Assembly (NCBI GenBank): GCA_002633005.1
Contig: NMRA01000008.1
Location: 1,933,456-1,997,455, forward strand
Direction: 5' to 3'
Origin: Phoronis australis
Taxonomy: Eukaryota; Animalia; Phoronida
Length of the DNA stretch: 64,000 nt
Position 1 is the stretch's first letter; each line of letters opens with the position of its first letter. Under the pieces are notes generated by a model that ran no database searches, was not told the DNA's origin, and saw only the letters and a list, made by a program, of their open reading frames with translations. Both the position numbers and the translations under genes were made by a program. This document shows positions 33,301 through 36,300 of this stretch, in pieces.

Positions 33301-36300
33301 CTTTCTATATCATATCGAGACCACTAGGTGACCATATTGGACCACTCTTGTATACCTTTCTATATCATATCGAGACCACTGGGTGACCATATTGGACCAC
33401 TCCTGTATACCTTTCTATATCATACTGAGACTGCCGAGTGACCATATTGGATCACTCTTGTATACCTTTCTATATCATACTGAGACTGCCGGGTGACCAT
33501 ATTGGACCACTCCTGTATACCTTTCTATATCATACTGAAACTGCCGGGTGGCCATATTGGACCAATCTTGTATACCTTTCTATATTATACTACAGTATTT
33601 GTGATCTGGAAGGGCTGCCTCTTATGCGAGGTGATTATACTTTCTAATCGCGAAAAATGTCACGCCTATCTTTTTCACACCTGACATTAAATCTGTAACA
33701 TGTATAATACCTCCTTAACATCATTTCTGATTATTTATTGTGACAGCGATTTACAAATAGATTAGTTTGCTGGTACATTCCGTCAAGATGTTCATCATGC
33801 AGTTAACTCAAGCAAAAAGATGCGAAAGTACACTATGGCTTCACATCACAATAGCCTTGTGCTCTGTAACTGACAGTTGCTACAAATCTGCCCTCTCGGG
33901 CAAACCTCAACTTTTGATTTTGACCACCTGTCAACGACTACAAAACTGATCTCAAAGCGTTCCTTACATGGAAAAGAAGTGATTCATGGGCTTGGAAGAA
34001 CTATCAGCTAACTATTGCTTAAAGCACAGGCTCAGTAAGCCACAAGTTGAATCAATGGGCTAGTTGTTTCATCGCTGAAAGGAACACTACTGGAAATAGG
34101 CTGGCTCAGCAACTGAATGGTAGAGCAAGTTACGCCTTTGCGACTTTGACAGACTTCTGTAGGAGACAACATCATCGACAAGCTTTTGTGGTCAACACAA
34201 GACAAACCGAAAGTGTATTTATGGTAAAAATTCTGCAGTTTGGGACATTAATTATTTTGTCCAAGGTCAGAGTTTAAACAAAAATTTAGAAACAAAAAAT
34301 ACTGACCAAATGACCATGCATCTCGATGTTACACACTATTGGGACACATAAAAACATAGGATCACTGGCTCACTGTGACCAGTTTATGAGCTGCCAAGTT
34401 TATTCTCAGACTGTGCTGATGTAAAACAGTGACCAGTGTTTGAGAAATATGATAAATGCCAAAAATCACCCATGTCCCAATATTCAGACTCTGGAAAACA
34501 ATTTACAGTAAAAACTGGATATAATCACCTGTTCAGTGTCTAAGGACTCCATGTCGGCCACGCGTGTCTTCCTGGCTGCTTCCCTCTTGGCCTTCTCTTC
34601 AGATACAATGTCTTCTTTCTCTGTATCTTGCAACGACTTTAAAATTGCGGCCAACTCGGGTTCGCTGGACATCTTCTCCTCAATTTTCTGTCGCTCGGAT
34701 TCACTTTGCGCTGATGCTAGTAAGGTGCAGTACAAGACTGAAAAGGAACATATTGTAATTCCAGTAATACAGTGCTGGCTTTATCACTTTATCATCGTCT
34801 ATCGCCTATCTTTTCAAACCGACCAATCTCGATGAAATTTTTTGGTCTAGTCTTAATCATTACTCAGCTTATAAGTGATTTCAAGGCTTCAGAAGAAACC
34901 GACAGGTCATTATTGCTTCAGACCAGGCCCACCAGGTGGCGTGTTAGTTTCAGTGTGGCCATCACTGAGGAGAACTGCAGTCCATTTACAGAAATCCAAC
35001 TTCAATTCAAACAAAGGATGAGTACGCAATAACATTATTTTGAACACCAGAAACAGTTTATAGCGGCTTTGAAGACCATACAGTGAGCAAACATTCACAC
35101 CACGCACAAAAATTATATTTTCACCTTCAGATAACACTACTTCTCACAAAAACTCAAGGACCAGAAGGTCCGAATCATTCAAATTTGCGCAGTGTTTAGT
35201 CATCATCAGGTTGGGCAGCCCAATTCCATCAAATAAACTTCAGATCAGTACGGGTTTAACATCAATGTTTTAGACTCAGTAAAGCGAAACGTCATGTTTC
35301 AAAATGAAATTCTGTAGTCGCCGTCACTTTTATATACTTGTCATTGGTGTAGTCAAACACAGACGTTATTAACAAGTCTATGGTTGACACTCCATCCATT
35401 CCGAATCAAGTAGCTGACAAACACTTTACACTGCATTCGAGCGTTCACAGCAAATCACAGCCCTCTGGCAAGTGAGAGAAAAGGAGGACAACGTACTCAT
35501 CTGTCGGTGTTTCCGCAGCACTTTAATGAACTCAAACTGATTGAAGGAGAGAAGCATGACCAGTTGGTTCTCAGCATCGTGGTCATCAGCCGCAGTCTGC
35601 AATCAGAAATCAAATAGCATGACACGACTAGGGCATAACGTGATAACGCACTCTCTGCAGTCCTCGAGTAAGATGGTTGGACAACATTGTCGTGCAACGT
35701 CGTTCCAAAGGTAACCCTGAATACCAGTTGTATCAACAAAGGCATAAACAATCCCACTAAAGTAATGTAACTCCTAGTAGATAATCCGTTCCTTGTAAAC
35801 ATGCCGAAGTTTTACACCCTTCGTCTTTAAACCGGCTTTTGTATCAATTTTGTATCAATTTTGCAGCTCCAGATGTAGTCACAAGCTTTAACACAGTCAA
35901 TAAGATCATGGATATTATCATTCATCCCGGTGATTAACCAGATGCAAAAAAAAATAAATCACAACTTTTGGAACTTACTGTAGAACAATTCTTCTTTGCT
36001 ACAGTGCAGGTAAGAGATGGCAATCATTATTTCACTAAAACAGATATTTATCATGCATCTCAACCGCAGTATTGTGCTAACCTTCAATATATCCAACACC
36101 TCCTGCGCCTTAGTTTGAGCCACCATGGGGTCTTCGTAGTACTGGCGGAGTTTCCTCTGTAACCAGAAGGCATCTATGTCCCGAGGATGCAGGCCCTGGT
36201 CACCCTTGTCTTCTTGATTCAACAACTGAGGACAATAACAACAACAACAACACTTCAGTACACGTCAATGAATATTGTCACACCATTCACCAACTTATGA

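What the first reader, a model, noticed from the sequence alone, without database searches (positions are those of the whole stretch)
35123..35211. U4 snRNA-targeting box C/D guide RNA hosted in an intron of the U4/U6 helicase Brr2
Seen: on the host-sense strand of intron 7, an 89-nt unit with perfect C box ATGATGA (35200-35206), D box CTGA (35127-35130), closing stem ACCT/AGGT in canonical register and an internal GGACC/GGTCC hairpin. The element CACTGCGCAAA (35184-35194) lies before a D'-like TTGA. Established: U4 begins AGCUUUGCGCAGUG, this segment forms U4/U6 stem II, Brr2 unwinds U4/U6, and vertebrate U91/SCARNA17 guides U4 Cm8 with a very similar C-box/guide/D' layout (recalled from memory) but is independently transcribed. 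Inference: an invertebrate U4-methylation scaRNA co-produced with the helicase that acts on the same RNA, i.e. a host-guide-substrate module. Caveat: the strict D'+5 rule points to U4 G7, one nt from the vertebrate Cm8.
Basis: partly seen in the sequence, partly recalled or inferred. Interest (0 to 1): 0.85.

Follow-up and report, generated by a model that had tools for sequence, protein, structure and literature searches.

The report
Intronic U4 guide RNA, shifted target
An intron of this invertebrate's splicing-helicase gene holds a small RNA gene that likely guides a methyl mark onto the splicing RNA U4, predicted one base away from the vertebrate site; look-alikes sit in unrelated genes of other organisms, so the helicase host is probably incidental.

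Summary
All boxes, stems and the 11-nt U4-complementary element lie at the stated places, in intron 7 of SNRNP200/Brr2. A metagenome scan gave seven more copies in six eukaryotic contigs. A model built without the window scores it 41.2 bits; the best of 121 seed-matched decoy loci scores 28.0. It is very likely a real box C/D guide for U4 stem II that works like vertebrate U91/mgU4-8.

First, the one-base offset is systematic: 8 of 8 non-vertebrate copies put D'+5 on U4 G7, whereas 10 of 10 published vertebrate sequences put it on C8. Second, the Brr2 module is not supported: the other copies sit in U2SURP, kinesin and ant dsRNA-binding genes. No Cajal-body signal was found, so 'scaRNA' is unsupported.

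Expression, the species' own U4 and the methylation are untested. I found no U4-G7 guide in the paper searches, but a key evolutionary paper could not be read. The scan had not noted this on other DNA. Verdict: new variant of a known kind.

The parts
35123..35211 (-). Predicted box C/D guide RNA gene, 89 nt including terminal stem
   Evidence: 41.2 bits with a model built without the window; weak Rfam RF00283 match 19.7 bits
35208..35211 (-). 5' arm of terminal stem (ACCT)
   Evidence: pairs with 35126-35123 in the predicted fold
35200..35206 (-). C box ATGATGA (perfect RUGAUGA)
35184..35194 (-). 11-nt antisense element, complementary to nt 4-14 of human U4 (stem II)
   Evidence: duplex -18.3 kcal/mol; invariant in 8 of 8 copies (the first 10 nt were the search seed)
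35179..35182 (-). D' box TTGA; fifth base upstream (C at 35187) faces U4 G7
   Evidence: canonical CTGA in the same register in L114 and L027
35158..35171 (-). Internal hairpin GGACC-TTCT-GGTCC between D' and C'
   Evidence: a GGAC...GTCC hairpin also in L114 and L027
35141..35147 (-). Likely C' box GTGAGAA (5 of 7 to consensus); its A6 pairs with U1 of the D' box
   Evidence: assignment inferred
35127..35130 (-). D box CTGA; the 10-12 nt before it are not conserved, so probably no second guide
35123..35126 (-). 3' arm of terminal stem (AGGT)
34738..35496 (-). Host intron 7 of SNRNP200/Brr2, 759 nt, GT-AG; unit lies 285 nt from the 5' and 385 nt from the 3' splice site
35497..35596 (-). SNRNP200 exon 7 (100 nt)
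34529..34737 (-). SNRNP200 exon 8 (209 nt)
90..41811 (-). Host gene SNRNP200/Brr2 from its start codon (41811) to the last exon seen near the window's left edge

Best explanation
The unit is likely a single-domain box C/D guide RNA, predicted to be cut out of the spliced Brr2 intron and to direct fibrillarin to 2'-O-methylate U4 snRNA at G7, one base from the vertebrate Cm8. Shown: the boxes, stems, intronic sense-strand position, splicing of the intron, complementarity to human U4 nt 4-14, and seven like copies elsewhere. Inferred from established C/D biology: trimming of the debranched intron to about 85 nt, assembly with 15.5K/NOP56/NOP58/fibrillarin, pairing with U4 while stem II is free of U6, and methylation of the base paired to the fifth nucleotide upstream of D'. 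It probably descends from the same ancestor as the 3' (U91/mgU4-8) domain of vertebrate SCARNA17, as a free-standing intronic form that moves between host genes. Brr2 is then one of several hosts, not a dedicated partner.
For: (1) Anatomy and position. (2) Seven more copies in 6 of 120 fetched loci; one (second copy in L037) did not match the search pattern and turned up by BLAST. (3) Purine-led C box plus D box plus a stem of 4 or more of 5 pairs: 6 of 8 copies, 0 of 121 other seed matches; the stems differ in sequence and still pair. (4) Model R1, built from six copies without the window: window 41.2 bits, next window hit 15.4; held-out L027 41.8; best decoy 28.0; strict-pattern decoys 24.0 or less. 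(5) Register: three A's, one base, then D' in 8 of 8 copies, with canonical CTGA in two; two A's in 10 of 10 vertebrate rows of Fig. S5 of PMC4041459. The search pattern allowed both registers. (6) In 6 of 6 copies whose D' starts with U, the likely C' has A6, a U-A pair where vertebrates have C-G, which supports the D' placement. (7) Host switching of snoRNAs is documented (PMC6984369, PMC2655684 passages).
Against: No transcript of the unit was seen and none of the RNP steps was tested. The species' own U4 could not be obtained; the pairing uses human U4. The Rfam U91 match is far below threshold (19.7 against 40) and a bacterial decoy scores higher (23.5), so descent from a U91 ancestor rests on layout and target, and convergence is possible. 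The homologs were found with a seed taken from the window and partly picked by their D box and stem, so controls (3) and (4) are not fully independent. D' and C' are degenerate, the C' was chosen after the fact, and in L114 and L027 the C'6:D'1 pair does not form. L017 has only 3 of 5 stem pairs and L027 has no D box. L114 has no identified host.
Confidence: 0.68

Rival explanations
1. Same guide, but it methylates C8 as in vertebrates (or both G7 and C8), because one guide base loops out or the degenerate D' is read one base off.
For: Cm8 is the mapped human modification (PMC7960923 table). D' is degenerate in 6 of 8 copies. Guides that mark adjacent bases through alternative conformations exist in yeast and human (recalled, no call).
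Against: L114 and L027 carry a canonical CTGA in the G7 register. The third A is present in 8 of 8 copies and extends the duplex to U4 nt 4. The C'/D' compensation fits the stated D' in 6 of 8.
Confidence: 0.13
2. First reader's module: the guide is kept in Brr2 by selection so that guide, helicase and U4 turnover are co-regulated, perhaps acting on U4 that Brr2 has just released from U6.
For: The guide covers the U4 strand of stem II (nt 3-16, PMC13253345) and can pair only when U6 is absent. Two of the four identified host genes encode spliceosomal proteins (Brr2; U2SURP).
Against: Other copies sit in a kinesin gene (two copies in one intron) and an ant dsRNA-binding-domain gene. None of 120 loci matched Brr2 exons. 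snoRNAs change hosts often. Four hosts are too few to show enrichment for splicing genes.
Confidence: 0.08
3. It is a C/D RNP that does not methylate U4 but acts as a U6-mimicking chaperone or decoy, or it methylates another RNA bearing the same 11-mer.
For: The guide shares 8 nt with the U6 strand of stem II (U6 sequence). A regulatory, non-guide role has been proposed for nucleolar human mgU4-8 (PMC5612246). No Cajal-body element is present. rRNA and other snRNAs of this species were not scanned.
Against: The spacing between guide and D' is fixed in 8 of 8 copies, which a methylation guide needs and a decoy does not. An 11-of-11 match to U4 nt 4-14 at the site of a known vertebrate guide is hard to get by accident.
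Confidence: 0.08
4. Chance arrangement of motifs, or a dead copy.
For: Boxes plus stem alone occur about once per 64-kb strand; Rfam score below threshold.
Against: Guide 11-mer expected 0.014 times per strand; 0 of 121 seed-matched decoys have the full anatomy; model score well above all decoys; all elements intact.
Confidence: 0.03

Closest known systems
U91 / mgU4-8, the 3' box C/D domain of vertebrate SCARNA17 (mgU12-22/U4-8); Rfam RF00283 (named SCARNA18 there)
   Same: About 80-90 nt; C box, short spacer, D' guide to the U4 5' end, short hairpin, C', D box and terminal stem in the same order. It is the only Rfam family matching this place.
   Different: Guide ends in three A's, giving U4 G7 rather than C8. 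D' is UUGA rather than CUGA. It is an intronic monomer, whereas SCARNA17 is a capped, independently transcribed composite of about 420 nt with a U12 guide domain. Score is 19.7 against a gathering score of 40.
Chicken GGgCD77 (RFWD2 intron) and GGgCD3, computationally predicted U4-C8 guides (PMC2653536)
   Same: Intron-encoded single C/D RNAs proposed to target the U4 5' end, so an intronic U4-end guide has been proposed before.
   Different: Predicted for C8; GGgCD77 uses the D box and its printed guide has a mismatch to human U4; no likeness in layout to this unit; different hosts.
Drosophila mgU4-65 and human U87/SCARNA5 (U4 Am65 guides)
   Same: C/D guides for U4 snRNA; mgU4-65 is an invertebrate example.
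   Different: Different U4 site; these are Cajal-body RNAs (mgU4-65 co-precipitates with WDR79); no such signal found here.

Membership tests
Box C/D 2'-O-methylation guide RNA | C box RUGAUGA near the 5' end and D box CUGA near the 3' end | tested here: met
Box C/D 2'-O-methylation guide RNA | Terminal stem closing the C/D motif in canonical register | tested here: met
   4 bp in the window; 4 or more of 5 pairs in 6 of 8 copies, with different sequences
Box C/D 2'-O-methylation guide RNA | Internal D' and C' boxes | tested here: inconclusive
   D' TTGA and C' GTGAGAA are degenerate; compensating U-A pair in 6 of 8 copies, C' chosen after the fact
Box C/D 2'-O-methylation guide RNA | 10-21 nt antisense element just upstream of D or D' | tested here: met
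   11 of 11 to human U4 nt 4-14; the species' own U4 was not available
Box C/D 2'-O-methylation guide RNA | Encoded on the sense strand of a spliced intron | tested here: met
Box C/D 2'-O-methylation guide RNA | Accumulates as a discrete RNA bound to fibrillarin and 15.5K | not testable with these tools
   Only 151-nt paired RNA-seq runs were on hand
Box C/D 2'-O-methylation guide RNA | Target is 2'-O-methylated opposite the fifth base upstream of the box | not testable with these tools
   Needs RiboMeth-seq or primer extension
U91 / mgU4-8 (Rfam RF00283, SCARNA17 3' domain) | Reaches the Rfam gathering score (40 bits) | tested here: not met
   19.7 bits, E 0.59; a bacterial decoy reaches 23.5
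U91 / mgU4-8 (Rfam RF00283, SCARNA17 3' domain) | D'-linked guide complementary to the U4 5' end | tested here: met
U91 / mgU4-8 (Rfam RF00283, SCARNA17 3' domain) | Register that selects U4 C8 | tested here: not met
   G7 in 8 of 8 copies; C8 register in 10 of 10 vertebrate rows
U91 / mgU4-8 (Rfam RF00283, SCARNA17 3' domain) | Part of an independently transcribed composite with a 5' mgU12-22 domain | tested here: not met
   Intronic; no match to a U12-guide family in 33500-37000 at E up to 10, and no second C/D unit in the intron
scaRNA | Cajal-body signal (GU/UG wobble stem in vertebrate intronic C/D scaRNAs) | tested here: not met
   No GU run (feature from PMC4041459). A fly-type CAB motif, recalled from memory, was also absent. 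Vertebrate mgU12-22/U4-8 lacks GU repeats too, so this lowers the label only.
scaRNA | Accumulates in Cajal bodies / binds WDR79 | not testable with these tools
   Needs FISH or IP

The most novel reading that the evidence does not exclude
Many invertebrates carry an unrecorded U4 modification, Gm7, in the core of U4/U6 stem II. It is placed by a mobile single-domain guide that is the ancestral form of vertebrate U91, and the guide is kept by selection in spliceosome genes (Brr2, U2SURP) because it acts on U4 freed by Brr2. The Gm7 part alone I put at about 0.6; the full reading with selected coupling is far less likely.
Probability: 0.1. Interest if true: 0.75.

Novelty: new variant of a known kind. 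Interest (0 to 1): 0.42.

Why it matters
If right, it extends the U4 5'-end guide from vertebrates to an ant and several other likely invertebrates, in a form that Rfam misses. It predicts a one-base shift of an snRNA modification between animal lineages, testable by one RiboMeth-seq or primer-extension experiment. The site lies in U4 nt 6-11, where human variants are depleted in a saturation screen and linked to a recessive disorder (PMC13253345 passages), so what a ribose methyl does there is of interest. It also suggests how the composite SCARNA17 arose, from a free-standing intronic domain. The Brr2 coincidence is appealing but probably not the point.

Tried and rejected
Rfam at gathering threshold: 0 matches in the window. 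The weak RF00283 match was not used as proof, because a bacterial decoy scores higher.

Whole genome: not held, so no search for the species' U4, rRNA targets or paralogs. A U4 pattern in viral contigs found nothing; the guide pattern in viral contigs found nothing; 7 hits in prokaryotic genomes served as decoys.

Orthologous SNRNP200 introns could not be fetched, and the records behind L016, L017, L037, L045 and L114 could not be extended.

Sequencing runs: no RNA holder listed. No read covers the unit in three paired 151-nt RNA runs; such libraries lose short RNAs, so this counts neither way. One DNA contig of the same sample shows 4 differences in 848 nt and none in the unit: too few to show constraint.

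A second C/D candidate at 23565-23447 overlaps an exon and was rejected. A second ncRNA or repeat in the 3' half of the intron was considered: no Rfam match and no second copy in the window. The taxa of L037 and L017 stayed open (one search gave only unnamed hits; one search gave no result).

Papers not held: Darzacq 2002, Deryusheva and Gall 2009, and Marz 2011 on unusual animal sno/scaRNAs (recalled), which may describe invertebrate U91 homologs.

Full report
Observation. The host is SNRNP200/Brr2 (PWI and Sec63 domains). It is invertebrate-like: for exon 4 the best named hits are a brachiopod (80%) and an oyster (75%), and frogs are 62-63%. RNA reads show the 759-nt GT-AG intron 34738-35496 being spliced (21 and 9 reads in two of three RNA runs). 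Six of the first seven junctions are seen in reads and exons 1-8 join to 396 codons without a stop, so this is intron 7.

Is it more than chance? Boxes with a 4-bp stem arise about once per 64-kb strand in Markov simulations, whereas the 11-mer is expected 0.014 times. Rfam gives nothing at threshold and a weak match to the U91 family RF00283 (19.7 bits, E 0.59). That match is not proof, since a bacterial coding sequence reaches 23.5.

Related copies. Most are bacterial coding matches. Six loci hold seven copies with the same layout. L016 and L017 lie in an intron of a gene whose exon matches human U2SURP (E 7.6e-5; the two loci are 85-90% alike in exons). L037 has two copies in one intron of a kinesin gene; I read it as kinesin-6/KIF23-like from memory. 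L045 lies in an intron of an ant dsRNA-binding-domain gene (96% to an Atta protein). L114 has no gene in the 629 nt held. L027 is 82% like L114 over 73 nt, lacks a D box and runs into an intronless reading frame, probably a chimeric contig. Only L045 has a named taxon; that the others are animals is inferred.

Controls. A purine-led C box with a D box and at least 4 of 5 stem pairs in canonical register is found in 6 of 8 copies and 0 of 121 other seed matches (114 metagenome, 7 prokaryotic genome). The stems differ in sequence and still pair. A covariance model built from six copies without the window scores the window unit at 41.2 bits, the next window hit at 15.4, held-out L027 at 41.8, the best decoy at 28.0, and seven decoys with the stricter pattern at 24.0 or less. 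These tests are partly circular: the seed came from the window, and I picked the copies partly by their D box and stem. The host genes, and the second L037 copy that did not match the pattern, are the independent part.

Target and register. The element is the exact complement of nt 4-14 of human U4 as printed in PMC13253345 (passages), within stem II (nt 3-16). By the D+5 rule (established knowledge) all 8 copies select G7. Two of them have a canonical CTGA, which fixes the register. In Fig. S5 of PMC4041459 (supplement part 3 of 3) 10 of 10 vertebrate mgU4-8 domains have one A fewer and select C8, the mapped human site (PMC7960923 passages). The search pattern allowed both registers, and 101 of 121 decoys show the vertebrate spacing. 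In the 6 copies whose D' starts with U, the likely C' carries A6, a U-A pair in place of the vertebrate C-G; in L114 and L027 the matching pair does not form. The region before the D box is not conserved, so there is one guide. The species' own U4 could not be obtained.

Mechanism. Most likely the RNA is trimmed out of the debranched intron, assembles a C/D RNP, pairs with U4 while stem II is free of U6, and has fibrillarin methylate G7. Only the anatomy, the splicing of the intron and the complementarity to human U4 are shown; the rest is inferred from the family. Where it acts is open. There is no GU repeat, vertebrate mgU12-22/U4-8 lacks one too, the processed human monomer is reported in nucleoli (PMC5612246 passages), and snRNA modification does not need Cajal bodies in flies (PMC6298559 and PMC3884663 passages).

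The Brr2 link. Four host genes are identified: Brr2, U2SURP, a kinesin and a dsRNA-binding protein. None of the 120 loci matched six N-terminal Brr2 exons. Host switching is common among snoRNAs (PMC6984369 and PMC2655684 passages). Two spliceosomal hosts out of four is worth a survey but is not evidence of a module. Retention in SNRNP200 among close relatives was not testable.

Comparison and novelty. It works like U91/mgU4-8, but I do not file it as a member: score, register and gene form all fail the test. Intronic guides for U4 C8 were predicted in chicken (PMC2653536 passages and supplement rows). A search for U4-G7, U4-Gm7 and mgU4-7 found no paper with those terms. Searches for invertebrate U91/SCARNA17 homologs or snoRNAs hosted in SNRNP200 showed none in their listings. 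Term look-ups in the Trichoplax, Didemnum and Xenopus annotation papers and the human snoRNA catalogue found no U91. PMC2811027 and PMC9241379 were seen as passages only. Three relevant papers were not held, and supplements of the snoRNA catalogues were not searched, so prior annotation cannot be excluded. Earlier notes of this scan hold no look-alike.

Verdict. A real and probably functional intronic C/D guide for the U4 5' end, part of a wider family that Rfam misses, with a predicted one-base target shift. The Brr2 module is unproven and probably incidental. New variant of a known kind; interest 0.42.

Noticed in passing
window 34794-35105: A few host-sense RNA reads (depth up to 5.6 in X5, about 1 in X6) cover the part of intron 7 just downstream of the unit, and none covers the unit or the part upstream. 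Several other unique intron stretches have none, but intron 8 has a similar low level in X6. It may be an intron remnant or background.
   Followed up: partly
L037 3739-3833 and 2928-3026 (minus strand): Two copies of the guide in one intron of a kinesin gene; the upstream one has a more degenerate D' (TTTA).
   Followed up: yes
L016 362-475, L017 2520-2635 (minus strand): The guide is kept in the same intron of U2SURP in two related organisms, a second spliceosomal host.
   Followed up: partly
L045 2997-3117: An ant copy in an intron of a dsRNA-binding-domain gene, about 67 nt from the first downstream AG; a practical species group for testing Gm7.
   Followed up: partly
L027 1-150: A guide fragment without D box joined to a long intronless reading frame that looks like a kinesin; probably a chimeric contig.
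   Followed up: no
L037, L016, window 35138-35132: A stretch before the D box (the likely C' region in most copies) is complementary to the start of the guide, so the free RNA can fold guide against spacer.
   Followed up: no
window 59334-63278 (minus strand): Exons of a KTI12-family P-loop kinase; by memory it resembles seryl-tRNA(Sec) kinase PSTK.
   Followed up: partly
window 53444-53740 (plus strand): An exon-like frame that by memory resembles AUP1 or an acyltransferase; no Pfam match.
   Followed up: no
window 33060-33560, 37200-37300, 40830-41030, 41120-41470: Tandem repeats and a high-copy interspersed repeat (DNA depth in the thousands) inside SNRNP200 introns.
   Followed up: no
window 5211-5348 (plus strand): Second-best hit of model R1 (15.4 bits, E 0.078), antisense to the host and with a broken guide; probably chance.
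   Followed up: no
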